The notes under the pieces were generated by a model. That model did not search any database. It had not been told where the DNA came from and was given only the letters and a program-made list of their open reading frames with translations. A program made the translations under genes and the position numbers. A stretch of DNA of 64,000 bases, taken from Candidatus Bathyarchaeota archaeon. Its GTDB lineage: Archaea; Thermoproteota; Bathyarchaeia; TCS64. Each line of letters opens with the position of its first letter. Within the stretch, counting starts at the first letter, position 1. The stretch is from assembly GCA_963820555.1 (NCBI GenBank), contig CAWGAT010000044.1:45638-109637 (forward strand), read 5' to 3'. Shown piece after piece: positions 12,480 to 45,618 of the stretch.

Positions 12480-12932
12480 TTACCTGATTCTTAGACCCTC
12501 CGCGAATCTCTTCGCGTCCTGTATATCAGCCTCGTTGGGCCTACCCTTGTTTATTCCGCCTAATAGTTTGAGGGCTCCATATGTGTCGAAGGCTCGACAG
12601 TGCCACTCCCCGACTACCTTCAGGCCTTTATCCCCAAGGTGCTTCCTCAGCTCCTCGTGTGCCCTCTGGTAGGAGTCGCTGCCGTGGGTGCTGAAGATGA
12701 AGGCGGGCTTATCGATGCCCATCGGAAGACTATCGATGAAGGCTATGAGCCTCTTATCGAACTTATCGAAGTAGTTTCCAGACGCGAAGCCGATCAAGTC
12801 GAAACCGCTGATCGACTCCAGTTTGGTTGATTCAGGACTTCTCAGCTCTGCCTCGAGCACTTCCCCTATGGCTTTGGCAATCTTTTCCGTGTTTCCATGG
12901 TGGTAGGAGATGTAGACGATAAGGGTCTTCAT
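12480..12932 (-). CDS. flavodoxin-family protein
   Basis: MKTLIVYISYHHGNTEKIA flavodoxin-like N-terminus; 150 aa. Confidence 0.8.
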   Translation of the reverse strand: MKTLIVYISYHHGNTEKIAKAIGEVLEAELRSPESTKLESISGFDLIGFASGNYFDKFDKRLIAFIDSLPMGIDKPAFIFSTHGSDSYQRAHEELRKHLGDKGLKVVGEWHCRAFDTYGALKLLGGINKGRPNEADIQDAKRFAEGLRIR

Positions 12933-15096: not shown

Positions 15097-15109
15097 GGAG
15101 GAATATGAA

Positions 15110-26122: not shown

Positions 26123-26933
26123 CTCCGTCGAAGACGACCATGGCGATCTTCTCGTTGGGGTTGTAGAACCTCATGCGGCTAATGAGTTCATCATAGTTGA
26201 CCTTGTGGCCGTCAAAGTCAGGGCCGTGGACACAGGCGAAGCGCGTCTCCCCGCCGACGGTTACGCGGCAGGCCCCGCACATCCCCGTCCCATCCACCAT
26301 TATGGGGAACAGGTTAACCGTCGTCGGCGTGCCATAGGGCCTAGTCATCTCGGAGACAATCATCTGCATGCTCGTAGGCCCAATGGTAATCGCCTGAGAG
26401 AATTTCTTCTCCTTCAGCAGTTCCGCCAAGAAGGCTATGCCCTCATGGCCCTCCGAACCATCGTCGGTGGCAACGTGGAACTCGTCGCTGACCTTCCTCA
26501 GTTCGTCTACGAGGATGAGGTGATCCTTGCTTCTCGCCCCCAGGATCGTGGTTATCCGGTTTCCTGCTTTCCTCAGCGCCTTCACCTGGTATAGTAGGGC
26601 ACCCGCCATCACGCCCCCGCCCACGCAGAGGACGTCACCGTATTTCTGTATCTTCGTCGCGTTCCCGAGGGGACCCGAGAAGTTCAGTATTGAGTCCCCT
26701 ACATCCAGCTTCCCGAGCTGGATCGATGACTTCCCCACCTCCGCGAAGATGATGGTGACCGTGCCCTTCTTAGGGTCAGCATCCGCTATTGTTATCGGGA
26801 ACCTCTCCCCGCGCTCGTGGACGCGCAGAATAACGAACTGCCCTGGTCTCGATTTAGCGGCAACCGCAGGTGCTGTGACATCAAAGAGCTTGATGTTTGG
26901 TGCAAGCTTCTCCTTCCGCACTATACCGTACAT
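26115..26933 (-). CDS. nfnA: FNR/PyrK-like FAD/2Fe-2S subunit, NfnA/SudB-like small subunit
   Basis: RFPITIAD, VLCVGGGVMAGAL, and C-terminal CGACRV..FACVHGP. 8-nt overlap with the nfnB-like gene. Start placed at MYGIVRKEK. Confidence 0.85.
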   Translation of the reverse strand: MYGIVRKEKLAPNIKLFDVTAPAVAAKSRPGQFVILRVHERGERFPITIADADPKKGTVTIIFAEVGKSSIQLGKLDVGDSILNFSGPLGNATKIQKYGDVLCVGGGVMAGALLYQVKALRKAGNRITTILGARSKDHLILVDELRKVSDEFHVATDDGSEGHEGIAFLAELLKEKKFSQAITIGPTSMQMIVSEMTRPYGTPTTVNLFPIMVDGTGMCGACRVTVGGETRFACVHGPDFDGHKVNYDELISRMRFYNPNEKIAMVVFDGGD

Positions 26934-27090
26934 GAAGGGATCACAGTATTGTGGGTTAATACTATAAAAACCTGTACATGTTGTAATTATAATGAAGACC
27001 CTAACTGACAATCTCAATTAAAGGGAAAAACCGATGCAGGGAAAATGAGTAACGTATTGAAGAAGAAGAAAAAAAGAAATAACGAAGAGT

Positions 27091-28440
27091 TTACGCGTAG
27101 TAGCCCTGGGCGACCATCGCGTCGGCGACCTTGAGGAAGCCTGCGATGTTGGCACCCATTACGTAGTTGCCGGGCTGGCCGAATAGCTTCGCGGTGTCGT
27201 AGGCGTTCTTGTGGATGCCTACCATGATCGCGTGAAGCTTCTCGTCAACTTCCTCGCGAGTCCAGAAGTAGCGCTGGCTGTTCTGAGACATCTCGAGTCC
27301 GCTCGTGGCTACGCCACCTGCGTTGCTCGCCTTGCCGGGTGCATACAGGACCTTCGCCTTCTGGAAGACCTCGATGGCCTTCAAGTCGCAGGGCATGTTA
27401 GCGCCCTCGGTGACGGCTAAGATTCCGTCAGCGACAAGCTTCTCAGCCTCCTTGCCAAGCAGCTCGTTCTGAGTTGCGCTGGGGACTGCCACCTGGCCCT
27501 TGTAGTCCCATGGCTTTGCGCCCTTCTTGTACTCGATGCCCTTGAACTTCTCAGCCATCTCGCTGATGCGTCCCCTCTTGACGTTCTTCAGCTCCATCAT
27601 AAAGTCCCACTGCTCCTTTGTGAGACCCTTTGGCATGTAAATCGTACCGTCAGAGTCGCTGAGGGTGACTACCTTGCCTCCGAGCTGCATGACCTTCTCG
27701 GCGGCATACTGGGCCACATTGCCCGAGCCGCTGATGAGGACATCCTTACCCTTGAAGGAGTCCTTCTTGGTCTTCAACATCTCCTCAGCGAAGTAGACCG
27801 CACCATAGCCAGTCGCCTCCGGCCTGATGAGGCTGCCACCGAAGGGTATACCCTTGCCGGTGAGCACGCCAACACCGTGCTGGTTAGTGATCTTGCGGTA
27901 AGCGCCGTACATATAGCCTATTTCTCGTCCGCCCACACCGATGTCGCCAGCGGGGACGTCCGTGAACTGGCCAATGTGCCTAAAGATCTCTAGCATGAAG
28001 CTGGTGCAGAAACTCTCGACCTCGGCGTCAGTCTTGCCCTTGGGGTCGAAGTCGGAACCGCCCTTCGCACCACCCATGGGTAGGGTGGTGAGGCTATTCT
28101 TTAAGACCTGCTCGAAGCCTAGGAACTTTAGGACGCCGAGGTTCACCGTGGGGTGGAACCTGAAGCCGCCCTTGTATGGGCCGATAGCTGAGTTGAACTG
28201 GATCCTGTAGCCACGGTTGATCTGGAGCTCTCCATTCTTGTCCTTCCAGGGCACACGGAACTGAACCAGCCTCTCGGGCTCGACGATGCGCTCAAGAATC
28301 TTGTTCTCCTTGTACTGGGGGAACTTCTTGATCGCGGGCTCGATCGTGGTCAGAACCTCATATGCGGCCTGGTGGAACTCCTTCTGGAGGGGGTCCTTTT
28401 CAACAATGCCGTTGTAGACACTCTCAATATACTTATCCAA
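27091..28440 (-). CDS. gdhA: NADP-specific glutamate dehydrogenase, ~450-aa bacterial type
   Basis: GPYKGGFRFHP, PMGGAKGGSDFDPKGK, GSGNVAQYAAEK. Collinear with my recollection of E. coli GdhA over the full length. Confidence 0.95.
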   Translation of the reverse strand: MDKYIESVYNGIVEKDPLQKEFHQAAYEVLTTIEPAIKKFPQYKENKILERIVEPERLVQFRVPWKDKNGELQINRGYRIQFNSAIGPYKGGFRFHPTVNLGVLKFLGFEQVLKNSLTTLPMGGAKGGSDFDPKGKTDAEVESFCTSFMLEIFRHIGQFTDVPAGDIGVGGREIGYMYGAYRKITNQHGVGVLTGKGIPFGGSLIRPEATGYGAVYFAEEMLKTKKDSFKGKDVLISGSGNVAQYAAEKVMQLGGKVVTLSDSDGTIYMPKGLTKEQWDFMMELKNVKRGRISEMAEKFKGIEYKKGAKPWDYKGQVAVPSATQNELLGKEAEKLVADGILAVTEGANMPCDLKAIEVFQKAKVLYAPGKASNAGGVATSGLEMSQNSQRYFWTREEVDEKLHAIMVGIHKNAYDTAKLFGQPGNYVMGANIAGFLKVADAMVAQGYYA

Positions 28441-28828: not shown

Positions 28829-30757
28829 ATGAACGGAGATGCTCTCATAGCCCTGACTGTTGGTTTCCCGTCTTTGGCGGGCCTCTTATGTTATGCCCTG
28901 AACAATAAGGCGGCTAGAAGAATCATTGTGGCGCTGACCGCCGCTGTTCTCATAGGTTCATCCCTCCTACTTTTCCAGGGCGGTGGTGGACATACGTACG
29001 ATTCACCGCCGATATTCGAAAGCGTTGTCCTTGTGCTCGACCTCGCGCTACTGGTTTACTTCCTCTACGCCGGGTTGAAGTATAACAACTTGCTTGTCAT
29101 CGGGCTCGCCGCGCTGCAGCTTGTTCCAGTGGCTTATTTTGAGTTCGGCCTCGGCGGAATGGCCGTCGAGCCGATGATCATCGTCAATCAGCTCTCGCTT
29201 ATAATGAGCCTGATCATCAGCATCGTGGGCTCCTTCATTGTCGTGTACGCTCTAAGCTATATGGATGAGCATGAGCATCACTTACACATCGAGAAGAGCA
29301 AGCAACCGCGCTTCTTCTTCTTCATGCTGCTCCTCCTCAGCGCGATGTATGGTCTCGTTTTCAGCAACAGCCTCTACTGGGTCTACTTCTTCTGGGAAGT
29401 CACGACCCTTTGCAGCTACGAGCTGATTAGGCACGACGGAACGGACATCGCGGTAAAGAACTCGCTGACCGCCCTCTGGATGAACCTCCTCGGCGGCGTC
29501 GGCTTCGTCGCCGCGATCTACCTCGCATACACCTTCGCGGGTACCCTCTCCATAGAGGCTCTGGTAAACTCGAACTTGACTCGCCCATCTTTACTACTCT
29601 TCGCCGCGCTCGCTTTCGCTGCTTTTACAAAGTCCGCCCAGTTTCCATTCAACAAGTGGTTACAGGGCGCGATGGTCGCGCCGACCCCCGTCTCCGCACT
29701 GCTTCATTCCAGCACGATGGTTAACGCAGGCATCTTCCTCATCCTAAGGTTCGCCCCCGCCTTCAGCGATACCGCACTTAGCTTCGGGGTCGCCCTTGTC
29801 GGGGCGTTCACCTTCATGATAACTGCTGTCCTCGCCCTGAACGAGAGGCTATCCAAGGGGATACTCGCCTACTCTACCATAGGGAACCTCGGCCTCATCA
29901 TACTCTGCGTGGGGATCAGCACCCCTCAGAACCCACTGGGCTACGTCGCAGCGCTAACGTTGCTCATCTTCCACTCCGTCTCTAAGGGCCTCCTCTTCCT
30001 CTGCGCGGGTGTCGTCGAGAACCGCGTACACACGCGCGTGATCGAGGACTGGGAGGGGCTCCTCGCAAGGCTCCCCACCACGACGATTATCATGATCGTC
30101 GGGATGTTGAGCATGTTCCTGCCCCCATTCGGGATGCTACTAGGCAAGTGGGTGGCCATCGACGCGATAATCACGTCGTCAACCCTCGGCTTCCTCATAA
30201 TAATCTCGTTCGTGCTCATAGGTAGTGCTGCGACGACCCTCTACTATGCGAAGTGGCTGGGGCACATGCTCGTGCTCCCACAGTCTGGGAAAAAGCTCGG
30301 CGTGGAGCAGCTCCCGCTACCATACTCGATATCGCTATTGTCCCTGCTAACTCTCGGCATAGTGATGGGGGCCGGTGCATCGATGGTCATCGGGGCGGTC
30401 GTGCTCCCCGCGTTGCCTGCCGGGAACTTCCCTTTCATAAGCGCCGGGACCCTGAGCTTCTCCACTGGCATCGGTACGTTCCTCACCTACCCATTCTGGG
30501 TCGGCGCCATAGCTATCTTCGTCTTAGGGTGGATAATAGCGACGAAGAAGGGCGGCGTCGTGAAGCCACCCTACGTCAGCGGCGAGAATGTCTCGGACAA
30601 CCCCGACGCCTTCAAGACGACGGCGGACACCCAGGTCCCGATGGAGGTCTCAGCCTTATTCATGGAAAACGAGTTCAGCCAATCCAAGGTGCTGAGCTAC
30701 GGCGCCGTGACGGGGGCGTTGATCGTCATGATAATGTTCATAACGGTGGTGCTTTGA
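28829..30757 (+). CDS. Ech-type hydrogenase membrane subunit, antiporter-like (EchA/NuoL/MrpD family)
   Basis: 642 aa, polytopic. Contains WVYFFWEVTTLCSY and ALLHSSTMVNAGIFLILRF regions typical of NuoL/M/N-type subunits. Confidence 0.85.
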   Translation: MNGDALIALTVGFPSLAGLLCYALNNKAARRIIVALTAAVLIGSSLLLFQGGGGHTYDSPPIFESVVLVLDLALLVYFLYAGLKYNNLLVIGLAALQLVPVAYFEFGLGGMAVEPMIIVNQLSLIMSLIISIVGSFIVVYALSYMDEHEHHLHIEKSKQPRFFFFMLLLLSAMYGLVFSNSLYWVYFFWEVTTLCSYELIRHDGTDIAVKNSLTALWMNLLGGVGFVAAIYLAYTFAGTLSIEALVNSNLTRPSLLLFAALAFAAFTKSAQFPFNKWLQGAMVAPTPVSALLHSSTMVNAGIFLILRFAPAFSDTALSFGVALVGAFTFMITAVLALNERLSKGILAYSTIGNLGLIILCVGISTPQNPLGYVAALTLLIFHSVSKGLLFLCAGVVENRVHTRVIEDWEGLLARLPTTTIIMIVGMLSMFLPPFGMLLGKWVAIDAIITSSTLGFLIIISFVLIGSAATTLYYAKWLGHMLVLPQSGKKLGVEQLPLPYSISLLSLLTLGIVMGAGASMVIGAVVLPALPAGNFPFISAGTLSFSTGIGTFLTYPFWVGAIAIFVLGWIIATKKGGVVKPPYVSGENVSDNPDAFKTTADTQVPMEVSALFMENEFSQSKVLSYGAVTGALIVMIMFITVVL

Positions 30758-30758
30758 C

Positions 30759-31667
30759 ATGGTAGACTTCCTTAACCTCAACACGTACGTCCCAGTGGTC
30801 CTAGTCATACTGGCCCCCATGATCGGCGGCCTGCTGATGGGAATAGACCGGAGGATAACCGCTAGGATGCAGAGCCGCATGGGGCCGCCGATAATGCAAC
30901 CCTTCTACGACGCGATAAAGCTCTGGGGCAAGGAGCCGTTCATCGCGAGCAGCATCCAGCCGATCCTGGCCTTCGGCTACTTCGGCTTCAGTGTCGCCGC
31001 CTTCGCGCTTCTCGCCTTCGGGCAGGACATGTTACTGCTCGTCTTCACCATGGCGATAGCGGATCTATGCCTGATAGTGGCGGCCTTCAACTCCAAGTCC
31101 CCATACAGCAACATAGGCGCCCGCCGCGAGCTACTCGGAATGCTAAGCTACGAGCCCGTTCTGCTCCTGGCAGCGATCAGTATCTTCTTCGTCTCCGGTA
31201 GCTTCATGGTCGGCTCGATCTTCGATGTCAAAGTGCCGCTGCTCACGATCCTTCCCTTAACCTTCCTAGCCCTCATCCCTGTTCTCATCATCGACATGAA
31301 GAAGTCCCCCTTCGACGTCTCGGGTTCAGGCCACGCCCACCAAGAACTCGTCAGGGGTGTCTACACAGAGTTCAGCGGTTACACCCTCGCACTCGTCGAG
31401 CTAGGCCACTGGACGAAGGTCGCCCTGCTCGTAGGCTTAGCGAGCCTATTCTGGGCAAAGGACGTAGTCCTTGGCGCCCTCACGGTCCCGTGGATAGTGG
31501 TGGGTGCAGTCATCGCCTTTGCCCTCTTCTTCGTCGTGCTCGTGATAGACAACAGCTACCCGAGGCTCGACTGGAAGACGATGGTAAAGACCACGTGGGT
31601 CGTGGGCTTCCTCCTGATAATCGCGAACATCGTCGGGCTCATCGCCCGTGTGGTGATACTATCATGA
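30759..31667 (+). CDS. Ech-type hydrogenase membrane subunit (EchB/NuoH/HycD family)
   Basis: GIDRRITARMQSRMGPPIMQPFYDAIKLWGKE signature; starts 1 nt after the upstream stop. Confidence 0.85.
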   Translation: MVDFLNLNTYVPVVLVILAPMIGGLLMGIDRRITARMQSRMGPPIMQPFYDAIKLWGKEPFIASSIQPILAFGYFGFSVAAFALLAFGQDMLLLVFTMAIADLCLIVAAFNSKSPYSNIGARRELLGMLSYEPVLLLAAISIFFVSGSFMVGSIFDVKVPLLTILPLTFLALIPVLIIDMKKSPFDVSGSGHAHQELVRGVYTEFSGYTLALVELGHWTKVALLVGLASLFWAKDVVLGALTVPWIVVGAVIAFALFFVVLVIDNSYPRLDWKTMVKTTWVVGFLLIIANIVGLIARVVILS

Positions 31668-32107
31668 AGACAATGACTAAGGCACGGCTCAAGTCGCCGT
31701 GGGTCATGCACTTCGACTGCGGCAGCTGCAACGGCTGCGACATCGAGATACTCGCCGCTCTGACGCCGAAGTTCGACGTGGAGCGCTTCGGAATCGTCAA
31801 TATAGGTGACCCGAAGCAGGCGGACGTCCTATTAGTGACGGGTCCCGCCAACAAGCGCAACCAGCGCGTATTAAAGAACCTCTACGACCAGATGCCCCAA
31901 CCTAAGGTCGTCATCGCCATCGGCGAGTGCGCCTGCAGTGGCGCGATCTTCCATAACTGCCCCAACACTCTCGGTGGCGTCGACAAGGTCATCCCCGTGG
32001 ACGTCTATGTCCCCGGATGCGCGGCACGTCCCGAGTCGATCATAGACGGAGTCGTACTAGCACTGCAGAAGCTCCAGAAAGTGAGCGAGGGCGAGAAGGT
32101 GGAATAA
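31664..32107 (+). CDS. group-4 [NiFe] hydrogenase small subunit (EchC/NuoB-like)
   Basis: Four cluster cysteines in CGSCNGCDIE, GECACSG and VPGCAARPE; ATGA overlap with the upstream gene. Confidence 0.9.
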   Translation: MKTMTKARLKSPWVMHFDCGSCNGCDIEILAALTPKFDVERFGIVNIGDPKQADVLLVTGPANKRNQRVLKNLYDQMPQPKVVIAIGECACSGAIFHNCPNTLGGVDKVIPVDVYVPGCAARPESIIDGVVLALQKLQKVSEGEKVE

Positions 32108-32108
32108 G

Positions 32109-33908
32109 ATGACTGCACAGCAGTTCGAATTAAAGTCAAAGACCGAGAACATCGCGGCTGAGAAGTCGGAGATGTTCAACAGGCTAAGCGAGCTGAAGGC
32201 TCAGGGTGCTCGCCTAATTACTATCACGGCCCTCGACCACGGCAAGGAGATTGAGTACGTCTACAACTTCTCAAGGGACATGGACGTGGTCAACCTCCAC
32301 GTCAAGACGCCAAGGAAGGAGCCGATGCCGAGCATCACGAGCGTTTACCCCTCCGCCTTCCTCTTCGAGAACGAGATACAGGACCTGTTCAAGATTCAGA
32401 TCTCTGGGATAAGCGTCGACTTCGGCGGCAAACTCCTCACCATCGAAGGGGCTGACGACACAACGCTCGTCAAGCCGGCGATCGGTCCCGCGCCGTTCAT
32501 CAAGAGGTTCTACGGGCGCTGCCGCGAGGCGTGCCCCGGCTCGGTTAACGCTCCCAAGTACATCAGGCAAGTCGCCCAGGGCGACCCGCAGGGCGGTTAC
32601 AGCACGGTATGCGAGCGGGCTCCCCTCCCCGCCATACTCGGGAGAGTCTGCTTCGCCCCCTGCCAAGAGGGCTGCCGTCAGGAACGCAACGACGAGCCCA
32701 TCCAGATTAGACTCATCAAGAGATACACGGCGGACTCGATGCCCAGCCTCAAGAGGAAGATGAAGGTAACCAAGCCCACCGGTAAGAAAGTCGCGATCGT
32801 AGGTGGGGGACCCGCTGGCGTTAGCTGCGCCTACTTCCTCGGGCTGCTCGGTCACGAGGTCACCCTCTACGAGAGGGGTGACCGCTGCGGCGGGGCAATG
32901 CTTTGGGGTATACCCAAGTACAGGCTCCCCAAGGACCTCCTGGAGGAGGAGATACAGGCACGCCTATCTGAGGCGGGTGTCGCCCTCAAGACGAAGAAGG
33001 AGGTCAAGAACCTCAAGACCCTGAAGAAGGACAACGACGCCGTCTTCGTCGCCATAGGGGCGCTCGACAGCTACAAGCTGGGCGTCGAGGGCGAGGACAA
33101 CGAGGGAGTCATGGACTTCCGCGAGCTCCTCAGCCAGGTCAACGTCCACGACAAGACCCCGTCCATAGGCGACCGCGTCGCTATCATCGGCGGAGGAAAC
33201 AGCTCGATAGACGCCGCGCGCGTCTCCAAGCGCCTCGGAGCCAGCAAGTTGGTCATGTACTACAGGCGCACCGAGAAGGAGATGCCTGCCTCGCCCCACG
33301 AGATCCACGGGGCGCTCCAAGAGGGCGTCAGCTTCGAGTACCTCACCGCCCCCGTGAAGATCGAGCCCGGTAAGCCCCTGAAACTCACCCTCCAGCACAT
33401 GGAGCTCGGCGCACCCGACGACTCGGGCAGGCGCAGGCCCGTGCCAGTGAAGGGGAGCGATTTCACGGTCGAGGTCGACACGATAGTCAAGGCGATCGGC
33501 CAGTCAGTTGTCGTGCCAGCAGACTTCGGCGTCGAGGTCAACAGGCAGGGCAGGATAGTCATCAACGAGGAGACGATGCAGACGAGTCTCCCCGGCGTCT
33601 ACGCCGGCGGAGACGGCGTCTACGGCCCCAGCAGCGTCATCGAGGCACTGAGGGACGGCAGGAAGGCCGCCCACAGCATAGACATGAGCCTCGGCGGCAA
33701 GGGCCTCCCACCGCCAGACCTTGATGCGGACGAGTTCGTGGGCCGCCCCCCAAACATCGAGGAGATCAGGTTCCAGGAGATGGTGAGCTGCCGCGAGCTA
33801 AACGCCGAGGAGCGCATAAAGGGCTTCGGCGAGGTCGAGCTCGGCTACAACGAGGACGAGGCGCTTCGTGAGGCGAAGCGCTGCTGGAAGTGTGACTGGA
33901 ATGAATGA
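32109..33908 (+). CDS. fusion protein: NuoC/EchD-like domain plus a GltD/NfnB-type NAD(P)H flavoprotein domain
   Basis: aa 1-115: PSITSVYPSAFLFENEIQDLFKIQISG (NuoC signature). aa ~135-560: RCREACPG, GRVCFAPCQEGC, KKVAIVGGGPAGVSCAY, DRVAIIGGGNSSIDAAR, GVYAGGDGV. C-terminal CWKC. Confidence 0.85.
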   Translation: MTAQQFELKSKTENIAAEKSEMFNRLSELKAQGARLITITALDHGKEIEYVYNFSRDMDVVNLHVKTPRKEPMPSITSVYPSAFLFENEIQDLFKIQISGISVDFGGKLLTIEGADDTTLVKPAIGPAPFIKRFYGRCREACPGSVNAPKYIRQVAQGDPQGGYSTVCERAPLPAILGRVCFAPCQEGCRQERNDEPIQIRLIKRYTADSMPSLKRKMKVTKPTGKKVAIVGGGPAGVSCAYFLGLLGHEVTLYERGDRCGGAMLWGIPKYRLPKDLLEEEIQARLSEAGVALKTKKEVKNLKTLKKDNDAVFVAIGALDSYKLGVEGEDNEGVMDFRELLSQVNVHDKTPSIGDRVAIIGGGNSSIDAARVSKRLGASKLVMYYRRTEKEMPASPHEIHGALQEGVSFEYLTAPVKIEPGKPLKLTLQHMELGAPDDSGRRRPVPVKGSDFTVEVDTIVKAIGQSVVVPADFGVEVNRQGRIVINEETMQTSLPGVYAGGDGVYGPSSVIEALRDGRKAAHSIDMSLGGKGLPPPDLDADEFVGRPPNIEEIRFQEMVSCRELNAEERIKGFGEVELGYNEDEALREAKRCWKCDWNE

Positions 33909-35028
33909 TGCAAAGATGTCCCAGAACAAGTACACCGTAATACCCTTTGGGCCCCAGCACCCCGTGCTACCCGAACCCGTACACCTCCGCTTCATCGTCG
34001 ACGAGGACAAGATAGTCGACGTCGTGCCAAACCTAGGCTACGTCCACCGCGGTATCGAGCGCGGCTGCGAGATCAACGACTACAAGAGGAACATCTACCT
34101 CTGCGAGCGCGTCTGTGGCATCTGCAACTACATCCACGGAATGACCTACAGCGAGGCGATCGAGAAGGCGACCGACACCGAGGTCCCCGCCCGCGCCAAG
34201 TACATACGCGTCGCATGGAGTGAGCTACAGCGCCTCCAGAGCCACCTGCTCTGGCTCGGCCTCTTCGCCGACGCGATCGGCTTCGAGAGCCTGTTCATGC
34301 AGATCTGGCGCGACCGTGAGGTTATACTCACCCTGAACGAGAAGACGAATGGTCACCGCATCCACCTAGAGACCAACGTGATCGGCGGCTGTAGGAAGGA
34401 CATCGACGAGAGCCTCGCGAAGGCCTACGTCGACGACCTCAGCATCGTGAGGCAGAAGATGGAGAACCTTCGCCCAGTCTTCTACAAGGACTCAGCCCTG
34501 AAGGCGAAGTGTGAGGGGAGGGGAATCCTGCCGAAGAGCAAGGCATCCTTCCTCGGCGCGGTCGGCCCAACTATCAGGGGAAGCGGTATCAAGACGGACG
34601 CCAGAATGACCGGATACGAGGCATACGGGGCCCTCGGATTCGAGCCTATAACCCACGAGGGGGAGGACGCCTACTCGAGGATGCTCGTCAGATACGACGA
34701 GGTCTTCCAGAGCCTCGACCTCATCGAGAAGGCGCTGAAGGAGATGCCGGAGGGGCCGGTGCTCAACAAGAGCACAAAGTTCCCGGAGGGCACAGCCCTC
34801 GTGAGGACGGAGCAGCCGCGCGGTGAGCTATTCTACTACATCGAGGGGAACGGCACGAACAAGCTTAGCCGCTGCAAGATCAGGACCCCCACCGCAGCCA
34901 ACATCCCGCCGCTCGTCTCGATGCTCATCGGGAACGATGTCCCGGACATCCCAACTATCATCCACAGCATCGACCCGTGCATAAGCTGCACGGAGCGCTT
35001 CATCCAGGTGAAGAAGGAGGCGAACTGA
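33901..35028 (+). CDS. group-4 [NiFe] hydrogenase large subunit (EchE/NuoD-like)
   Basis: PFGPQHP, N-terminal NiFe motif RVCGICNYIHG, C-terminal DPCISCTER; 8-nt overlap with the fusion gene. Confidence 0.9.
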   Translation: MNDAKMSQNKYTVIPFGPQHPVLPEPVHLRFIVDEDKIVDVVPNLGYVHRGIERGCEINDYKRNIYLCERVCGICNYIHGMTYSEAIEKATDTEVPARAKYIRVAWSELQRLQSHLLWLGLFADAIGFESLFMQIWRDREVILTLNEKTNGHRIHLETNVIGGCRKDIDESLAKAYVDDLSIVRQKMENLRPVFYKDSALKAKCEGRGILPKSKASFLGAVGPTIRGSGIKTDARMTGYEAYGALGFEPITHEGEDAYSRMLVRYDEVFQSLDLIEKALKEMPEGPVLNKSTKFPEGTALVRTEQPRGELFYYIEGNGTNKLSRCKIRTPTAANIPPLVSMLIGNDVPDIPTIIHSIDPCISCTERFIQVKKEAN

Positions 35029-35029
35029 T

Positions 35030-35368
35030 ATGCCGGAAATGGTAAAGGAAGTGCTCAAGAACCTCTTCAGCAAGCCAGCGACCGTCAAGTACCCGTTCGA
35101 GAAGCCGACGCCGGTCCCCGGGACACGCGGGGCCCTGACGTGGGACATGAACAGGTGCGACCAGTGCCAGGACTGCGAGCGCGTCTGCCCGAGCATGGCA
35201 ATCAAGGTCGTACCCGAGGAGAAGAGGGTCGAGTATCAGGCATTCAAGTGCCTCTTCTGCTACCTCTGCATAGACAACTGCATGCAGCAGGCGATCATCG
35301 GCTCGGACGTCATGAGGGCGCCCGAGTACACGAAGAAGACCGAGGTCTTCGAGGCCCAGAAAGCGTAG
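35030..35368 (+). CDS. 2x[4Fe-4S] ferredoxin subunit (EchF/NuoI-like)
   Basis: CDQCQDCERVCP and CLFCYLCIDNC motifs; starts 1 nt after the large-subunit stop. Confidence 0.85.
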   Translation: MPEMVKEVLKNLFSKPATVKYPFEKPTPVPGTRGALTWDMNRCDQCQDCERVCPSMAIKVVPEEKRVEYQAFKCLFCYLCIDNCMQQAIIGSDVMRAPEYTKKTEVFEAQKA

Positions 35369-35415: not shown

Positions 35416-35901
35416 ATGGTCCCAGACAGCGTAGTGGATCTCTCCGAGGCGGACACACGCTTCATGAGGAGTCTCGAGGCCGAGCTTGGCGCGAGCGACC
35501 TCAGCAAGTGCTTCCAGTGCGGGGTATGCACAGCCTCCTGCCCGATCCGGGAGGTCGAGGCGTCGTTCAGCCCCCGGAGGATAATGAAGCTGGCCAAGAT
35601 GGGGCTGAAGAAGCGGGTATACGCGAGCGACACCATCTGGCTCTGCAGCATGTGCTTCATGTGCCTCGAGAGGTGCCCACAGGACGTGCGCCCACCCGAG
35701 GTGATGATTGTCCTCAGGAACATGGCGGCGAAGGAGGGCGTGGCCCCCGCCAACCTCTCCAAGCTCCTCGACATACTGAAGCAAAACGGGCGAGTCTACT
35801 CCGTCGACGACTTCACGAACGAGGAGAGGGGCGACCGCGGCCTGCCCACCGTCGAGGCGGAGCCAGAGTTCATTAAGCGCATCTCGGAGGCGAAGTCATG
35901 A
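35416..35901 (+). CDS. hdrC: heterodisulfide reductase subunit C
   Basis: CFQCGVCTASCP and CSMCFMCLERCP motifs; 161 aa. Confidence 0.85.
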   Translation: MVPDSVVDLSEADTRFMRSLEAELGASDLSKCFQCGVCTASCPIREVEASFSPRRIMKLAKMGLKKRVYASDTIWLCSMCFMCLERCPQDVRPPEVMIVLRNMAAKEGVAPANLSKLLDILKQNGRVYSVDDFTNEERGDRGLPTVEAEPEFIKRISEAKS

Positions 35902-36770
35902 GGTACGGCCTCTTCCTTGGGTGCACCATCCCGACCCGGCAGATGAACTACGAGCAATCCGCGAGGGAGGTTGCGAGGGTGTTCGGCATCGAGTTCGTCT
36001 ACAGCGGCTACGGCTGCTGCGGGTTCCCCGTGGAGTCGGTCGACGAGGTCAAGGCACTGTCAATGGCTGCCGCAAATCTGAAGATCGCTTCATCAAGTGG
36101 GGATGCCCTCGTCACCCTGTGCTCGGCCTGCGGAGAGATGTTAAACAAGACAGAGAAGAGGCTCGGTGAGGACGCCGAGGCCGCGAAGGGCGTCGGGAAG
36201 GTCCTCGCCCAGGTGGGTCTAACATACTCGGGGGAGAAACCGAGGGTGATCCACTTCGCCAGGATGCTCCACGACGACTACGGCCTAGATAAAATCCGAG
36301 CACAGGTCGTGAGGCCACTCAAGGGCCTGAAGATCGCCACACACCCAGGCTGCCACTACGTCCGCCCATCAACCCTCTACCCGGGATTCGACGACCCTGA
36401 GTTCCCAGGCACCCTCGACAGGCTCGTCGAGGCCACGGGGGCCGAGGCTCTCGACTACCAGGGGAAGACAGACTGCTGCGGAGGCGGGATACTAGCAGTC
36501 CGAGAGGAGATAGCGAAGGCGATGACCGGTAAGAAGCTCTCGAGGCTATCCGGAAAGGCCGATGCCATGGTTGTCGTCTGCCCTTTCTGCGGGATAATGT
36601 ACGACAAGTACCAGAAGACACTAGAGGAGGAGCTTGGGAAGCAGTTCGGTCTCCCCGTCCTCTACTACCCCCAGCTACTCGGCCTCGCACTGGGCATCGA
36701 TCCATCCAAGCTGGGCTTCGACGTCAACTCGGTGGGCGTCCAAGCCCTCCTAGGGAAGGTGGGTGTCTGA
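35898..36770 (+). CDS. hdrB: heterodisulfide reductase subunit B
   Basis: Two CCG-domain motifs, GYGCCGFP and KTDCCGGG; ATGA overlap with hdrC. Confidence 0.9.
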   Translation: MRYGLFLGCTIPTRQMNYEQSAREVARVFGIEFVYSGYGCCGFPVESVDEVKALSMAAANLKIASSSGDALVTLCSACGEMLNKTEKRLGEDAEAAKGVGKVLAQVGLTYSGEKPRVIHFARMLHDDYGLDKIRAQVVRPLKGLKIATHPGCHYVRPSTLYPGFDDPEFPGTLDRLVEATGAEALDYQGKTDCCGGGILAVREEIAKAMTGKKLSRLSGKADAMVVVCPFCGIMYDKYQKTLEEELGKQFGLPVLYYPQLLGLALGIDPSKLGFDVNSVGVQALLGKVGV

Positions 36771-36771
36771 C

Positions 36772-39093
36772 ATGGCGACGGGGGTATTCATCTGCAAGTG
36801 TGGCGGGAACATCTCGGGCACGGTGGATTGCGAGAAGGTTCGAGACTCAGTTAAAGATGAGGGAGATGTCAAGACTGCGCAGGTCACCGAGTTCCTCTGT
36901 TCCAAGCCCGGACTCCAGCTGATTCAGAAAAGCATAAAGAACCATGGGCTGGACAGGGTCGTCGTCGCCTGCTGCAGCCCTCACATGCACGAAGAGATGT
37001 TCCGCGGTGTCGTCGAGGAGGCCGGCGTCAACAGGCACAAGCTCGTCCATGTCAACCTGAGGGAGCAGTGCAGCTGGGTCCACGACAGAGGTGCAACGGA
37101 GAAGGCCATGAGCCTCGTAAAGGGCGGGGTCGCGCGCGCTCGTACCCTTGAGCCCTTAGAGGAGAAAGTCGTAAAGATAAACAGGGACGTGCTCGTCATC
37201 GGCGGTGGAGTCGCGGGGATAACCGCTGGCTTACAGCTTAGCAAGGGCGGTTTCAAGGTCAGCCTCATCGAGCGTCGACCTAGCATAGGCGGGCGCATGG
37301 CACAGCTAAGTAAGACATTCCCCACCCTCGACTGCAGCCCGTGTATACTCAGCCCACGGATGGCGGAGGTCGGGAACGACGAGAACATCACCCTCCTGAC
37401 TGGGGCGGAGGTCGCCTCCGTGTCGGGCGGCCCGGGGGATTACCACGTCAAGGTCAGGGTCTCCCCAAGGGGAGTAGACGCTGAGAAGTGCCTCAAGTGT
37501 GGACGCTGTAGCCAAGTCTGCCCCACGGAGGTGCCGAATGAGTTCGAGGAAGGGTTGTACAAGCGTAAGGCCGCCTACCTACCATTCCCGCAGGCTGTAC
37601 CCTCGTCGTACGCCATTGACTTCGAGCACTGCCAGCGATGCGGCGCCTGCGTTGAGGCGTGCCCCGTCGGCGCCATCAACCTAGATGATGAGGAGAAGAT
37701 AGTCACCGTCGACGCCGGGTCGATGATAGTTGCCACTGGCTTCGACCTCATCGGGAACGAGGTGCTCCGCACCTATCACCCCGAGATGAGCGGGGTCGTT
37801 AACGGCCTACAGGTGGAGAGGCTCATCGAGAACGAGCTCACGGAGGGGAAGGTCCTGACGCGGGGGAACGGGGAGAGGGTTAAGTCCATCGCCTACGTCC
37901 TCTGCGCGGGGAGTCGGGACCCCCACCACGGTGTCGGCTACTGCAGCAGCGTCTGCTGCGCCTACTCCGTCAAGCAGGCCATCCTGCTCAGGAAGTTCCT
38001 ACCCTTCCTCAAGGTCTACATCTACTACACGGATATGCGGATGACTGGGCGTGGGTTCGAGGACTTCTACAGGGAGGCGCGCGAGAAGGGGGTCCAGTTT
38101 ATTCACGCGAAGCCCGGCGGGGTTACGCCCCTCGAGGATGGGCGGTTCGAGATAATCGTCGAGGACCTCGACACGGGGCTTATGCTGAGGAACCCGGTGG
38201 ACCTCGTTGTGCTCAGCTCCGCTATGGTCCCTTCCGCGGGGACGGGTGAGTTGGCGTCCCGCCTCGGCATAGCTCTCGGGGAGGACCTCTTCGTGGCGCC
38301 GAAGCATGTAAAGCTCGACCCGATCTCGACGCTGAGGGAGGGCGTCTTCGCCGTCGGTGTCGCTACGGGGACAAAGGATATACACGACTCGGTCATCGAC
38401 GCGAGGGCCGCGGCAAGCCACGTCTTCAACTTCGTCGGGGACGGCACTGCTAAGCTGAGCCCCGCCAAGCCCACCCATGAAGGGGAGTGCGACCTCTGCG
38501 GGGCCTGCGTGGACGCCTGCTCTAGAGGGGCCCTGACTATGGGTGGCGAGGGTCCGGTCCTCGACCCCGTGAGCTGCAACGGCTGCGGGGCGTGTATCTC
38601 TGTCTGCCCCAGAGGTTCGCTCAGGATACCGAACAACTCCGGGGACGCCTTGCTCGAGGAGGCAAGGGGGCTCCTCTCGGGAACCGAGGGAGACGTGGCT
38701 GTCCTGGGCTTTTTCGACGACAACATCAGTTATACGGCGGCCGACAACGCGGGTACTGCACGGCTTCACTACCCAACGAACATCAGGATTCTGAGGATGC
38801 CCTCCACCGCCCTTCTGAGCAAGGAGACCATCCTGAAGGCGATGGGGCTGGGCGCCGACGGCGTGCTCATCTGCGAGGTGGAGGAGAGCCATGAGGCCGA
38901 GCTGGCAGCGAGGCTCGTCGAGGATGTCTCGGAGACCCTGAAGAGCCTCGGCGTAGAGCCGGGGAGGGTACGCCTCCAGCCTATGGTGCTGCCCATCTTT
39001 AAGATGCTCCCCAAGTTCATCTCGGACTTCACGGAGCAGGTGAAGAAGATGGGCAAGATACCACCAGCGAAGCAGCGACTCTTATTAGGTTGA
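36772..39093 (+). CDS. hdrA: HdrA-MvhD fusion protein, copy 3 (intact)
   Basis: GVFICKCGGNISG, VVVACCSPH, VLVIGGGVAGITAGL, CLKCGRCSQVCP, CQRCGACVEACP. C-terminal MvhD-like domain. An alternative GTG start at 36763 overlaps hdrB. Confidence 0.9.
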   Translation: MATGVFICKCGGNISGTVDCEKVRDSVKDEGDVKTAQVTEFLCSKPGLQLIQKSIKNHGLDRVVVACCSPHMHEEMFRGVVEEAGVNRHKLVHVNLREQCSWVHDRGATEKAMSLVKGGVARARTLEPLEEKVVKINRDVLVIGGGVAGITAGLQLSKGGFKVSLIERRPSIGGRMAQLSKTFPTLDCSPCILSPRMAEVGNDENITLLTGAEVASVSGGPGDYHVKVRVSPRGVDAEKCLKCGRCSQVCPTEVPNEFEEGLYKRKAAYLPFPQAVPSSYAIDFEHCQRCGACVEACPVGAINLDDEEKIVTVDAGSMIVATGFDLIGNEVLRTYHPEMSGVVNGLQVERLIENELTEGKVLTRGNGERVKSIAYVLCAGSRDPHHGVGYCSSVCCAYSVKQAILLRKFLPFLKVYIYYTDMRMTGRGFEDFYREAREKGVQFIHAKPGGVTPLEDGRFEIIVEDLDTGLMLRNPVDLVVLSSAMVPSAGTGELASRLGIALGEDLFVAPKHVKLDPISTLREGVFAVGVATGTKDIHDSVIDARAAASHVFNFVGDGTAKLSPAKPTHEGECDLCGACVDACSRGALTMGGEGPVLDPVSCNGCGACISVCPRGSLRIPNNSGDALLEEARGLLSGTEGDVAVLGFFDDNISYTAADNAGTARLHYPTNIRILRMPSTALLSKETILKAMGLGADGVLICEVEESHEAELAARLVEDVSETLKSLGVEPGRVRLQPMVLPIFKMLPKFISDFTEQVKKMGKIPPAKQRLLLG

Positions 39094-44908: not shown

Positions 44909-45514
44909 CTAAACTCCATTATTTACCAATTTATCTAACTCTGCATAAGAAGTTCCTTGTAAGTGAACGTAAAGAGTGTATGTTCCGGGAGGAAGCAATA
45001 GAACATCCGTAGTACCAACATATGTAGAACCGAGCCACTCAGAATCAATCTTTCCACCAGTACCTGCGGAAGCATCGGATAAGCTAACAATACCATCAAA
45101 TAGCATTAAATATGCATAGTTGGATGATGACGAAGTGCTATCAGCAGCGTACCAATATATACGATATAAACTCTTCCCATCGGCAGTAATTGTGTAGACT
45201 GTCTGTGTTCCTGTTGTCCAAATAGCTTGACTTTGCCATGTTCCTGAGAAACTCCATGCGGGACCTTGAGGACCCTGTGCCCCGGTAAGACCTTGCAGTC
45301 CTTGATTTCCTTGGTTTCCCTGAGGACCTTGTACACCTTGTATGCCTTGGACACCTTGAATACCTTGGATACCTTGTATCCCCTGAATGCCTTGAGGACC
45401 TCTTATGGTCTCCCTAAGAGGAGACACTTCCAATAGCAACCCTATTGATAACAGGCTTGAGCACACTGTGGTTAGAATAATGATACTTACTATTTGAGAC
45501 GTTTTTAAACTCAT
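44909..45514 (-). CDS. collagen-like triple-helix repeat protein with an N-terminal membrane anchor
   Basis: 16 uninterrupted G-X-Y triplets ([48 protein letters not shown]), encoded at 45257-45400. N-terminal [23 protein letters not shown] and a ~115-aa C-terminal globular domain. Confidence 0.8.
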
Positions 45515-45618
45515 TTTCGGTCTTCAATGATTAGTTAAATGTAATATAAAAAATCAATGGATCATTAGTTCATTTAAAAAGTAACTTTCTTGGTTTACTA
45601 AATTCTATACAGTCGCAC

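What the first reader, a model, noticed from the sequence alone, without database searches (positions are those of the whole stretch)
32109..33908. NuoC/EchD-like hydrogenase subunit fused to a complete GltD/NfnB-type NAD(P)H flavoprotein
The 599-aa ORF occupies the EchD/NuoC slot. Residues 1-115 carry the NuoC signature (PSITSVYPSAFLFENEIQDLFKIQISG). Residues ~135-560 form a full GltD-family module with Cys motifs RCREACPG and GRVCFAPCQEGC, two Rossmann sites (KKVAIVGGGPAGVSCAY; DRVAIIGGGNSSIDAAR) and GVYAGGDGV, and the protein ends in a CWKC tail. A free-standing paralogue (nfnB-like) lies 6 kb upstream. The flavoprotein could be a built-in NAD(P)H entry or exit module on the peripheral arm. 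That would be a functional analogue of the complex I N-module grafted onto a minimal Ech scaffold, giving an NAD(P)H-linked, ion-translocating hydrogenase. I do not know of a characterised group-4 hydrogenase with this architecture.
Basis: partly seen in the sequence, partly recalled or inferred. Interest (0 to 1): 0.85.

Follow-up and report, generated by a model that had tools for sequence, protein, structure and literature searches.

The report
Ech-type hydrogenase with built-in NADPH flavoprotein
A membrane-bound, energy-converting [NiFe] hydrogenase of a Bathyarchaeia archaeon has an NADPH-binding iron-sulfur flavoprotein fused to one core subunit; the same design recurs in about 70 archaeal and bacterial species, so it may link hydrogen directly to NADPH rather than only to ferredoxin.

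Summary
ORF 32109-33908 (599 aa) sits in the EchD slot of an echABCDEF-like cluster. It joins a NuoC/30-kDa domain (residues ~10-104; the predicted fold matches only NuoC-type subunits/domains) through a conserved linker to a complete FAD/NADPH/2x[4Fe-4S] flavoprotein.

It is not an assembly artefact. More than 100 protein clusters of ~600 aa share the architecture. The same six-gene order occurs in 72 of 78 loci from species-representative genomes: mostly Bathyarchaeia, also Methanomethylicota, Korarchaeum, Dehalococcoidia and Planctomycetota. The NiFe-binding motifs are kept.

Two refinements. The flavoprotein is not a canonical GltD/NfnB. It is the circularly permuted cassette seen in StnC/NfnA of the Bfu-type transhydrogenases, and the "CWKC tail" is the displaced first CxxC of its distal cluster. 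It also carries the Lys cluster ligand (K204, invariant) of those non-bifurcating NADPH-input modules. The window's free-standing NfnB has Glu there.

Best reading (confidence ~0.6, inferred): a reversible, ion-translocating NADP(H)-linked hydrogenase. Electron-transfer connectivity was not tested. I found no description of this fusion in the searchable literature. I rate it a new variant of a known kind. A membrane-arm-less paralogue in some genomes is an extra lead.

The parts
28829..30757 (+). EchA-like membrane subunit (NuoL/Mrp antiporter-like, 642 aa)
   Evidence: Pfam Proton_antipo_M (E 3e-51) and Proton_antipo_N. Conserved at this position in the related loci.
30759..31667 (+). EchB-like membrane subunit (NuoH-like, 302 aa)
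   Evidence: Pfam NADHdh, E 1e-44. Synteny.
31664..32107 (+). EchC-like hydrogenase small subunit (NuoB-like, 147 aa, [4Fe-4S])
   Evidence: Pfam Oxidored_q6, E 2e-31. NCBIfam NuoB subfamily above its cut-off. 4-nt overlap with echB.
32109..32420 (+). Fusion protein, residues 1-104: NuoC/EchD (30-kDa) domain
   Evidence: Pfam Complex1_30kDa 25-100. AF2 plus Foldseek hit only NuoC-type subunits/domains. No other NuoC homologue in the window.
32421..32510 (+). Fusion protein, residues 105-134: conserved linker (L120, K122, G126, P129, R133 invariant or nearly so)
   Evidence: Alignments A1 and A2. Low pLDDT in the isolated chain. In frame in all homologues.
32511..32741 (+). Fusion protein, residues 135-211: Fe-S part of the flavoprotein cassette (C138, C142, C181, C185, C189, K204)
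   Evidence: Pfam Fer4_20, profile positions 31-108 only. These residues are invariant in 43 fusions. K204 aligns with the Lys170 cluster ligand of Csac NfnA and StnC.
32784..33659 (+). Fusion protein, residues 226-517: FAD and NADPH Rossmann domains (GGGPAG; GGGNSSIDAAR...YRR; GGD)
   Evidence: Pfam Pyr_redox_2, E 5e-31. Motifs invariant. Aligned to the NADPH-oxidising NfnA and StnC.
33786..33908 (+). Fusion protein, residues 560-599 plus stop: displaced N-terminal helix and first CxxC of the Fer4_20 domain (C592, C595). The C-terminus ...RCW[KR]CDWNE is invariant.
   Evidence: BLASTP of residues 567-595 against residues 19-47 of the window's NfnB. Single-stretch alignment to 9bov_A and 8oh5_C up to residue 596. 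Invariance.
33901..35028 (+). EchE-like [NiFe] large subunit (375 aa from ATG 33901; motifs RVCGIC and DPCISC, C-terminal extension)
   Evidence: Pfam Complex1_49kDa and NiFeSe_Hases. Best PDB matches MbhL 6cfw_L (1e-75) and HycE. Motifs conserved across loci.
35030..35368 (+). EchF-like 2x[4Fe-4S] subunit (NuoI-like, 112 aa)
   Evidence: Pfam Fer4 dicluster families. NCBIfam NuoI-like hits. A T-rich tract follows the stop.
35416..39093 (+). Context only: HdrC (35416-35901), HdrB (35898-36770), HdrA fused to MvhD (36763-39093)
   Evidence: Pfam. Found at this position only in the closest relatives L006-L009, L012, L013.
24710..28440 (-). Context only: NfnB-like (24710-26122), NfnA-like (26115-26939) and NADP-specific GDH-like (27091-28440), divergent from echA
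   Evidence: Pfam. NCBIfam NADP-specific GDH above its cut-off. Neighbourhood conserved in ~14 Bathyarchaeia loci.

Best explanation
The cluster 28829-35368 encodes a six-subunit, Ech-like, membrane-bound [NiFe] hydrogenase. Its obligatory NuoC/EchD subunit carries a permanently attached NADPH:Fe-S oxidoreductase cassette holding FAD, an NADPH site and two [4Fe-4S] clusters.

Proposed electron path: NADPH <-> FAD <-> proximal cluster (C142, C181, C185, K204) <-> distal cluster (C138, C189, C592, C595) <-> the two EchF clusters <-> the EchC cluster <-> NiFe site in EchE. Turnover would be coupled to H+/Na+ movement through EchA and EchB.

The reaction NADPH + H+ <-> NADP+ + H2 lies near equilibrium. 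At the low H2 pressures of sediments and soils the enzyme would evolve H2 from NADPH and could pump ions. The NADPH could come, for example, from the adjacent NADP-type glutamate dehydrogenase. At high H2, or when driven by the ion gradient, it would make NADPH. The flavin most likely acts as a simple two-electron to one-electron converter, not as a bifurcating centre.

Shown: the architecture, its conservation, the cofactor ligands and the subtype of the cassette. Inferred: inter-subunit electron transfer, nucleotide specificity in vivo, direction of turnover and ion coupling.
For: (1) The fusion supplies the only NuoC homologue of the cluster, so the flavoprotein must sit on the peripheral arm in 1:1 stoichiometry.

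(2) The order A-B-C-(NuoC~flavoprotein)-E-F recurs in 72 of 78 loci from species-representative genomes in archaea and bacteria, down to ~40% identity. NiFe motifs are retained in nearly every complete large subunit checked (also 18-21).

(3) All cofactor determinants are invariant in 43 diverse fusions: 7 Cys, K204, both Rossmann motifs, YRR (385-387) and GGD.

(4) The closest solved relatives by sequence and fold are the GltD-like inserts of Csac NfnA (9bov_A, E 5e-106), Tsi NfnA (9n5u_A) and StnC (8oh5_C), with the same permuted topology. There the module binds FAD and NADPH and feeds electrons singly through its two clusters into a Fe-S wire. Its flavin is non-bifurcating.

(5) The Lys ligand of the proximal cluster, diagnostic of NfnA/StnC as opposed to Glu in the bifurcating NfnL, is invariant here. 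The window's own NfnB has Glu.

(6) The chain break of the permutation lies in the loop between the 2nd and 3rd Cys of the first motif. The distal (exit) cluster therefore sits where the cassette joins its host, and the linker and the C-terminus ...CDWNE are conserved.

(7) A paralogous four-gene version without membrane subunits keeps the fusion. This argues that C + D~flavoprotein + E + F is a self-contained redox unit.

(8) NADPH-centred neighbours (NADP-GDH-like, NfnAB) are conserved in ~14 Bathyarchaeia loci.

(9) My calculation gives NADPH->H2 as -10 to -20 kJ/mol at 1 Pa H2.
Against: - No structural model of the complex was available, so no cluster-to-cluster distance is known.
- The linker has low confidence in the isolated chain.
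- EchF is unchanged in type, so ferredoxin may still dock and could be the main partner.
- NADPH versus NADH preference is inferred only from the YRR motif and from homologues.
- The driving force is small, and whether it supports ion pumping is open.
- The NfnAB/GDH and Hdr neighbourhoods are lineage-specific, not universal.
- One metagenomic variant (P0196) lacks the NADPH-binding subdomain.
Confidence: 0.6

Rival explanations
1. Three-port enzyme. Ferredoxin still docks at EchF and the flavoprotein is a second port. The complex would then work as an ion-coupled ferredoxin:NADP+ oxidoreductase with H2 as a valve, or it would confurcate NADPH and reduced ferredoxin to H2 (or the reverse).
For: - EchF is an ordinary NuoI-like 2x[4Fe-4S] subunit, and canonical Ech uses ferredoxin (abstract of PMC9356269).
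- A ferredoxin:NAD(P)+ role with a gltD-like subunit has been proposed for Mbx-like operons (PMC4758237). L063 carries such an operon next to the fusion cluster.
- A branched NADPH/H2/third-substrate scheme was proposed for some group 4b enzymes (PMC13582414).
Against: - The cassette is of the Lys type, whose flavin sits at the end of a linear wire and does not bifurcate.
- No additional flavin or HydBC-like bifurcating module is encoded in the cluster.
- A branch point cannot be judged without a structure.
Confidence: 0.2
2. The flavoprotein does something other than nicotinamide-nucleotide coupling to H2. It could reduce polysulfide or a disulfide, as reported for SudA-type enzymes, or it could be a largely structural or regulatory appendage.
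For: - GltD/SudA-like proteins are catalytically versatile (established knowledge of sulfide dehydrogenase/NfnI).
- A truncated SudA-like gene lies next to an mbh/mbx-related cluster in S. marinus (PMC2678158).
- Variant P0196 lacks the NADPH subdomain.
Against: FAD, NADPH and all cluster ligands are invariant across ~40-95% identity in two domains of life. That is not expected for a decayed or purely structural domain.
Confidence: 0.08
3. The hydrogenase works with the adjacent HdrCBA-MvhD as an Ehd/Ehe-like complex, a group 4 hydrogenase coupled to heterodisulfide-type reduction. The flavoprotein would be one input among several.
For: - HdrC, HdrB and HdrA~MvhD follow EchF directly in the window and in its closest relatives.
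- Hdr-associated group 4 hydrogenases have been proposed in Methanomethylicia and Culexarchaeia (PMC9723716).
Against: - Hdr is adjacent only in 6 of ~72 related loci (plus the window itself). Elsewhere it lies upstream of nfnAB or is absent.
- A T-rich terminator-like tract separates echF from hdrC.
Confidence: 0.05
4. Bifurcating Nfn-like site. The free-standing NfnA from the neighbouring nfnAB docks on the fused module, so that NADPH electrons split between NAD+ and the hydrogenase.
For: nfnAB lies 6 kb upstream in the window and in ~14 related loci. The module shares the NfnL fold.
Against: - It has Lys, not Glu, at the proximal cluster.
- Its topology is permuted.
- It is only 37% identical to the window's NfnB.
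- nfnAB is absent from most loci, including all bacterial ones.
Confidence: 0.04
5. Assembly artefact: two genes joined by an indel.
For: The assembly shows apparent frameshifts in other genes: the Mvh large subunit, two HdrA-like genes, an amidohydrolase and an M24 peptidase.
Against: - The same ~600-aa architecture occurs in >100 protein clusters from NCBI, ENA, JGI and Logan assemblies.
- It occurs in 72 loci of species-representative genomes, including a closed 2.3-Mb chromosome, with an in-frame conserved linker.
Confidence: 0.01

Closest known systems
Ech, the energy-converting [NiFe] hydrogenase (group 4e; Methanosarcina barkeri echABCDEF, Thermoanaerobacter kivui Ech)
   Same: Six genes in the order A-F: NuoL-, NuoH-, NuoB-, NuoC-, NuoD- and NuoI-like subunits. 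NiFe motifs are present in the large subunit.
   Different: Ech has a small free EchD and uses ferredoxin. Here EchD carries a ~465-aa FAD/NADPH/2x[4Fe-4S] cassette. The HydDB subgroup of the large subunit was not determined. The best solved match is MbhL.
GltD/NfnL-like insert of StnC (8OH5) and NfnA (9BOV, 9N5U) in the Bfu-type transhydrogenases StnABC/NfnABC
   Same: Best sequence and fold match. Same circular permutation. Same 7 Cys plus Lys ligation and the same FAD and NADPH motifs. Those modules work as non-bifurcating NADPH input wires.
   Different: In StnC/NfnA the cassette is inserted inside a NuoG/FdhF-like subunit and serves a HydBC-like bifurcating core. Here it is fused after a NuoC domain, the chain ends four residues after the CxxC, and the partner is a group 4 hydrogenase.
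NfnSL/NfnAB (5JCA, 4YLF) and glutamate synthase small subunit GltD
   Same: Same fold and cofactors. A true NfnAB pair lies 6 kb upstream.
   Different: Those have canonical, non-permuted topology, a Glu ligand and an NfnS/GltB partner, and NfnL has a bifurcating FAD. None of these features applies to the fusion.
Mbx/Ehr-like operons with a separate gltD-related flavoprotein (Thermotoga and some proteobacteria; also L063 here)
   Same: A complex-I-like scaffold paired with a GltD-type NAD(P)H flavoprotein, proposed as the NAD(P)+ site (PMC4758237; L063).
   Different: In L063 the NuoD homologue lacks the NiFe Cys motifs, so that complex is not a hydrogenase (PMC4758237 describes only vestigial NiFe Cys in mbx-type NuoD). 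The L063 flavoprotein is a free subunit of canonical topology.
N-module (NuoEFG) of respiratory complex I
   Same: Functional analogy only: a nicotinamide-nucleotide flavoprotein feeding the NuoI/NuoB cluster chain of a NuoBCDHIL-type machine.
   Different: The proteins are unrelated (FMN/NuoF versus FAD/GltD-like). Attachment is through NuoC rather than NuoG. No nuoE/F/G-like gene is called within the six-gene cluster.
NAD(P)-linked soluble [NiFe] hydrogenases (group 3b SHI, group 3d) and group 4b clusters with SHI-beta/gamma homologues
   Same: NADPH <-> H2 chemistry. An NADPH module on a group 4 enzyme was proposed in silico for some group 4b clusters (PMC13582414).
   Different: The nucleotide modules differ (SHI-gamma, FNR-like). 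Group 3 enzymes are soluble and not ion-coupled. None of these has a NuoC fusion.

Membership tests
Group 4 (energy-converting, Ech-like) [NiFe] hydrogenase | Large subunit carries both NiFe-binding motifs (RxCGxC near the N-terminus, DPCxxC near the C-terminus) | tested here: met
   RVCGIC and DPCISC are in the window's EchE. Both are present in nearly every complete large subunit of the related loci.
Group 4 (energy-converting, Ech-like) [NiFe] hydrogenase | NuoB-like small subunit, NuoI-like 2x[4Fe-4S] subunit and NuoC-like subunit | tested here: met
   Pfam Oxidored_q6, Fer4 dicluster families and Complex1_30kDa. NuoC fold by Foldseek.
Group 4 (energy-converting, Ech-like) [NiFe] hydrogenase | NuoH-like and NuoL/antiporter-like membrane subunits in the same cluster | tested here: met
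   Pfam NADHdh and Proton_antipo_M. Conserved synteny.
Group 4 (energy-converting, Ech-like) [NiFe] hydrogenase | Ferredoxin as redox partner, and ion translocation | not testable with these tools
   Needs biochemistry.
Group 4 (energy-converting, Ech-like) [NiFe] hydrogenase | Placement of the large subunit in a HydDB subgroup (4e, 4g, ...) | not tested
   No HydDB or reference tree was available. The best solved match is MbhL (group 4d), E 1e-75.
StnC/NfnA(Bfu)-type GltD-like NADPH input cassette | Permuted topology: CxxxCP ... GRVCxxxCxxxC ... flavoprotein ... helix plus CxxC | tested here: met
   Single-stretch alignment 138-596 to 9bov_A and 8oh5_C. The C-terminal 29 residues match the N-terminus of the window's NfnB.
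StnC/NfnA(Bfu)-type GltD-like NADPH input cassette | Lys as fourth ligand of the flavin-proximal [4Fe-4S] cluster | tested here: met
   K204 aligns with K170 of 9bov_A and is invariant in 43 fusions. The ligand role is described.
StnC/NfnA(Bfu)-type GltD-like NADPH input cassette | FAD and NADPH Rossmann motifs, including YRR after the second beta-strand | tested here: met
   GGGPAG, GGGNSSIDAAR, YRR 385-387 and GGD 500-502 are invariant.
Bfu-type NfnABC/StnABC transhydrogenase (the whole enzyme) | Cassette embedded in a NuoG/FdhF-like subunit, with HydB/HydC-like partners | tested here: not met
   The host is a NuoC domain. No NuoG-, HydB- or HydC-like gene is in the cluster.
NfnAB/NfnSL bifurcating transhydrogenase | Canonical topology, Glu ligand and an adjacent NfnS/NfnA partner | tested here: not met
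   The module is permuted and has Lys instead of Glu. There is no NfnA in the operon. The true NfnAB is a separate divergent operon.
Complex I N-module (NuoEFG) | NuoF (FMN/NADH), NuoE and NuoG homologues | tested here: not met
   No such Pfam families occur in the six cluster genes. The relationship is analogy only.
Mbx/Ehr-like complex with a GltD-like subunit | NuoD homologue without NiFe ligands, and a free GltD-like subunit | tested here: not met
   NiFe ligands are present and the flavoprotein is fused. A genuine example for contrast is L063 130-4499.

The most novel reading that the evidence does not exclude
This is a respiratory-type, ion-pumping NADPH:H+ oxidoreductase. It would let fermenting or syntrophic archaea and bacteria conserve energy from NADPH-driven H2 evolution at low H2 pressure. 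It would also be a second, independent solution to fitting a nicotinamide-nucleotide port onto the complex-I/group-4 scaffold, through NuoC with a GltD-type flavoprotein instead of NuoEFG. The membrane-arm-less paralogue would be a soluble NADPH hydrogenase derived from a group 4 enzyme.
Probability: 0.3. Interest if true: 0.88.

Novelty: new variant of a known kind. Interest (0 to 1): 0.68.

Why it matters
Energy-converting hydrogenases are treated as ferredoxin-dependent. Genome papers on Bathyarchaeia label such clusters simply 'ECH'. A built-in NADPH port would change redox and energy budgets inferred for some of the most abundant subsurface archaea, and for Dehalococcoidia. NADPH from amino-acid oxidation could then be vented as H2 with possible ion pumping, or H2 could make NADPH directly.

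It also bears on how complex I acquired its NADH module. Here the same scaffold has recruited an unrelated flavoprotein at a different subunit.

The system is compact: six genes, or four in the arm-less form. The hypothesis is therefore directly testable by heterologous expression or cryo-EM.

Tried and rejected
(1) Representative-library search with the N-terminal 140 residues. It returned mostly free 110-200-aa NuoC/EchD-like proteins and only three more ~600-aa fusion clusters (P0125, P0144, P0153), plus a shortened one (P0196). P0134 is a spurious low-complexity hit. The search was of limited use for distribution, so I used the genome scan instead.

(2) Ten literature searches (one search failed on syntax and one search returned mostly noise). 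None found a paper describing a NuoC-GltD fusion. The Hfo complex of termite-gut Bathyarchaeia (PMC7886697) is a different 11-subunit enzyme. The 'hybrid hydrogenases' paper (PMC11216029) concerns [FeFe]/[NiFe] fusions.

(3) A first regex pass suggested that five loci lacked NiFe motifs. Inspection showed the motifs are present. The filter had failed because GPQHP is changed to GPQDV.

(4) A multimer prediction was considered. The structure tool takes single chains and returns no coordinates, so cluster distances could not be measured. I did not attempt it.

(5) I looked for hyp and hycI maturation genes in the window and found none. A HycI gene follows echF in L001.

(6) No bacterial-type promoter or terminator scan was run, because the organism is an archaeon. 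I only note AT-rich TATA-like boxes upstream of echA and a T-tract after echF.
Full report
**The observation.** The window holds an intact 599-codon ORF at 32109-33908 (+). It is the fourth gene of a tightly packed cluster:

| Gene | Coordinates | Nature |
|---|---|---|
| echA-like | 28829-30757 | NuoL/antiporter-like |
| echB-like | 30759-31667 | NuoH-like |
| echC-like | 31664-32107 | NuoB-like small subunit |
| fusion | 32109-33908 | NuoC domain plus flavoprotein |
| echE-like | 33901-35028 | NiFe large subunit, RVCGIC and DPCISC |
| echF-like | 35030-35368 | NuoI-like 2x[4Fe-4S] |

Pfam finds Complex1_30kDa at residues 25-100, Fer4_20 at 137-211 and Pyr_redox_2 at 226-517 of the fusion.

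An AlphaFold2 model of residues 1-135, built on 40 homologues, is confident over residues 11-100. Its 47 best Foldseek matches in the PDB are NuoC/30-kDa-type subunits or domains of complex I, Mbh, MBS and formate hydrogenlyase. The window contains no other NuoC homologue. The fusion therefore has to provide this core subunit.

**Not an artefact.** A search of 5.8 billion proteins returned more than 100 clusters (at 90% identity) of ~600 aa carrying both Pfam families, down to 51% identity. All named ones are annotated merely as 'FAD-dependent oxidoreductase' or 'glutamate synthase beta subunit-like', mostly from Bathyarchaeota. The exact protein is on record from NCBI and ENA assemblies.

A scan of one genome per GTDB species gave 78 loci. 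Of these, 72 encode the fusion or its contig-truncated C-terminal part next to echE/echF. By tblastn, wherever the contig extends far enough, they show the same order A-B-C-(NuoC~flavoprotein)-E-F; five membrane-arm-less loci described below are the exception. Four contexts fetched independently agree, including a closed 2.3-Mb Bathyarchaeota chromosome.

Carriers are mostly Bathyarchaeia, including Hecatellales. Others are Methanomethylicota, a Korarchaeum MAG, about 13 Dehalococcoidia MAGs from unrelated studies and three Planctomycetota MAGs. A few other labels (Patescibacteria, Krumholzibacteriaceae, Desulfaltia, Bacteroidales) look like mis-binned contigs.

The large subunits keep both NiFe motifs. 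The assembly behind the window does carry apparent frameshifts in other genes.

**What the flavoprotein is.** The best PDB matches, by sequence and by fold of a confident full-length model (mean pLDDT 87.8), are:

- Caldicellulosiruptor NfnA (9bov_A, E 5e-106)
- Thermococcus sibiricus NfnA (9n5u_A)
- Sporomusa StnC (8oh5_C)

These rank ahead of canonical NfnL/NfnB (5jca_L, 4ylf_B) and GltD.

The alignment to NfnA and StnC runs in one piece from residue 138 to 596. Against the window's own NfnB, the body aligns (37% identity), but the last 29 residues (EERIKGFGEVELGYNEDEALREAKRCWKC) align to the N-terminus of NfnB. The module is thus circularly permuted relative to GltD/NfnB, exactly as in StnC/NfnA. 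The break falls in the four-residue loop between the second and third Cys of the first cluster motif. The 'CWKC tail' is part of a cluster-binding site.

Using the published ligands of Csac NfnA cluster A7 (C108, C147, C151, K170) and the alignment, I assign:

- proximal cluster: C142, C181, C185 and K204
- distal cluster, by elimination: C138, C189, C592 and C595

All seven Cys, K204, both Rossmann motifs, YRR 385-387, GGD and the C-terminus ...RCW[KR]CDWNE are invariant in 43 fusions spanning 43-89% identity.

Lys at this position marks the NfnA/StnC class. Its FAD sits at the end of a linear Fe-S wire and does not bifurcate. The bifurcating NfnL has Glu, and so does the window's NfnB.

The same permuted cassette also occurs in other hosts: HdrA-like proteins (L079, L083), NuoG-like N-termini (L074, L078) and an MvhD-tailed protein (L077). 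It behaves as a mobile NADPH-input module. The group 4 hydrogenase is a further host for it. The host list given for the NfnL-like domain in PMC12018979 does not name this one.

**Mechanism.**

- Shown by sequence and homology: a complete FAD/NADPH/2x[4Fe-4S] unit is covalently fixed to the peripheral arm of a genuine NiFe hydrogenase, and this arrangement is under long-term selection.
- Inferred: electrons pass between the distal flavoprotein cluster and the EchF/EchC chain, giving a reversible NADP(H)-linked, ion-coupled hydrogenase.

Three points support the inference. First, in StnC/NfnA the same cassette feeds a NuoG-type wire, with NADPH:viologen activity residing in that subunit. Second, the exit cluster lies where the cassette joins its host, next to a conserved linker. 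Third, a four-gene paralogue lacks the membrane subunits but retains the fusion (below).

Thermodynamically the couple lies near equilibrium. From textbook potentials I calculate NADPH->H2 at +18 kJ/mol at 1 bar H2, but -10 to -20 kJ/mol at 1 Pa H2. H2 evolution with some energy conservation is therefore plausible in H2-scavenged sediments and peat. The reverse reaction is plausible at high H2 or at the expense of the ion gradient.

In the window and ~14 related Bathyarchaeia loci the cluster is flanked divergently by nfnAB, usually together with a glutamate dehydrogenase gene. The window's GDH passes NCBI's cut-off for 'NADP-specific GDH'. This fits an NADPH hub, but it is lineage-specific. 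HdrCBA (with HdrA fused to MvhD) follows echF only in the closest relatives, after a T-rich tract. I therefore treat Hdr coupling as a minor rival.

The main rival is that ferredoxin still docks at EchF, so that the enzyme has three ports. I could not test this.

**Comparison with what is known.**

- The scaffold meets the sequence-level definition of a group 4, Ech-like hydrogenase. Its HydDB subgroup was not determined.
- The cassette meets the defining features of the StnC/NfnA type. The enzyme is not a Bfu transhydrogenase, because there is no NuoG/HydBC. It is not an NfnAB. It has no NuoEFG. The resemblance to the complex I N-module is analogy only.
- Looser precedents exist. gltD-related flavoproteins in Mbx-like, non-hydrogenase operons of Thermotoga were proposed as the NAD(P)+ site (PMC4758237). 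L063 shows such an operon directly upstream of a fusion-type cluster. A truncated SudA-like gene lies beside an mbh/mbx cluster in S. marinus. SHI-beta/gamma-type NADPH modules were proposed in silico for some group 4b enzymes.
- Bathyarchaeia genome papers that I could read describe 'ECH' or Hfo without mentioning such a subunit.

Within the limits of the searchable library, the fusion appears undescribed and uncharacterised. I rate it a new variant of a known kind.

**Extra lead.** Five Bathyarchaeia loci (L036, L038, L039, L043, L045) carry EchC-(NuoC~flavoprotein)-EchE-EchF with no echA or echB within about 8 kb on either side (less where the contig ends). Exactly these five have GPQDV instead of GPQHP in the large subunit's N-terminal loop. 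They also have an EchF lacking its first ~20 residues. All ~50 membrane-linked loci have the standard forms. Four of the five genomes also hold a full cluster. This looks like a soluble derivative of a group 4 hydrogenase and deserves its own follow-up.

**Verdict.** Observation confirmed. Interpretation partly supported: the architecture and cofactor logic are strong, and connectivity and physiology are untested. Interest 0.68.

Noticed in passing
L036 7501-11118; L038 7540-11157; also L039, L043, L045: A membrane-arm-less paralogue of the fusion cluster: EchC-(NuoC~flavoprotein)-EchE-EchF, with no echA or echB within about 8 kb on either side (less where the contig ends). Exactly these five loci have GPQDV instead of GPQHP in the large subunit and an 88-aa EchF lacking ~20 N-terminal residues. 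Four of the five genomes also carry a full cluster. This may be a soluble hydrogenase derived from group 4.
   Followed up: partly
window 16347-23341: A second hydrogenase/Hdr island: an MvhG-like small subunit, a NiFe large subunit split into two ORFs in different frames (17090-17977 and 17916-18491), two HdrA-like genes each broken across frames, and MvhD/FlpD pieces. These are either pseudogenes or indel errors of the assembly.
   Followed up: partly
window 53112-54490 and 54541-55897: An M24 peptidase-like gene and an amidohydrolase gene also appear split into overlapping or adjacent ORFs. This is further evidence of frameshifts in this assembly.
   Followed up: no
L063 130-4499: Directly upstream of a Dehalococcoidales fusion-type cluster lies an Mbx/Ehr-like half-cluster: a free NuoC, a NuoD-like gene without NiFe Cys motifs, NuoI and NuoH. 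It ends in a free, non-permuted GltD/NfnB-like gene that also has Lys at the cluster-ligand position.
   Followed up: partly
L074, L078, L077, L079, L083, L073 (match coordinates): The same permuted GltD-like cassette is inserted into other hosts: NuoG-like N-terminal Fe-S domains, a protein with a C-terminal MvhD domain, and the middle of HdrA-like proteins of 1130 and 1467 aa.
   Followed up: partly
P0196 (JGI metagenome protein, 460 aa): A shortened NuoC~flavoprotein fusion that keeps the Fe-S and FAD parts but lacks the NADPH-binding subdomain. It ends ...RCWRCDLEE.
   Followed up: no
window 13917-16006 and 11656-12932: POR-type 2-oxoacid:ferredoxin oxidoreductase subunits, a flavodoxin-like gene and a Fe-S protein lie just upstream of the Mvh/Hdr island. 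Together, 12-39 kb of the window is a dense redox-gene region.
   Followed up: no
window 2148-3533 and 44909-46449: A T4-like terminase large-subunit gene near the start of the window, and a phage-type integrase plus a collagen-repeat protein around 45-46 kb. These may be remnants of mobile elements.
   Followed up: no
large subunits in L054, L057-L071, L080 versus the archaeal loci: The bacterial versions end 3 residues after DPCxxC. The archaeal ones mostly carry an 11-13-residue extension, and L001 has a HycI protease gene right after echF. This suggests different maturation requirements.
   Followed up: no
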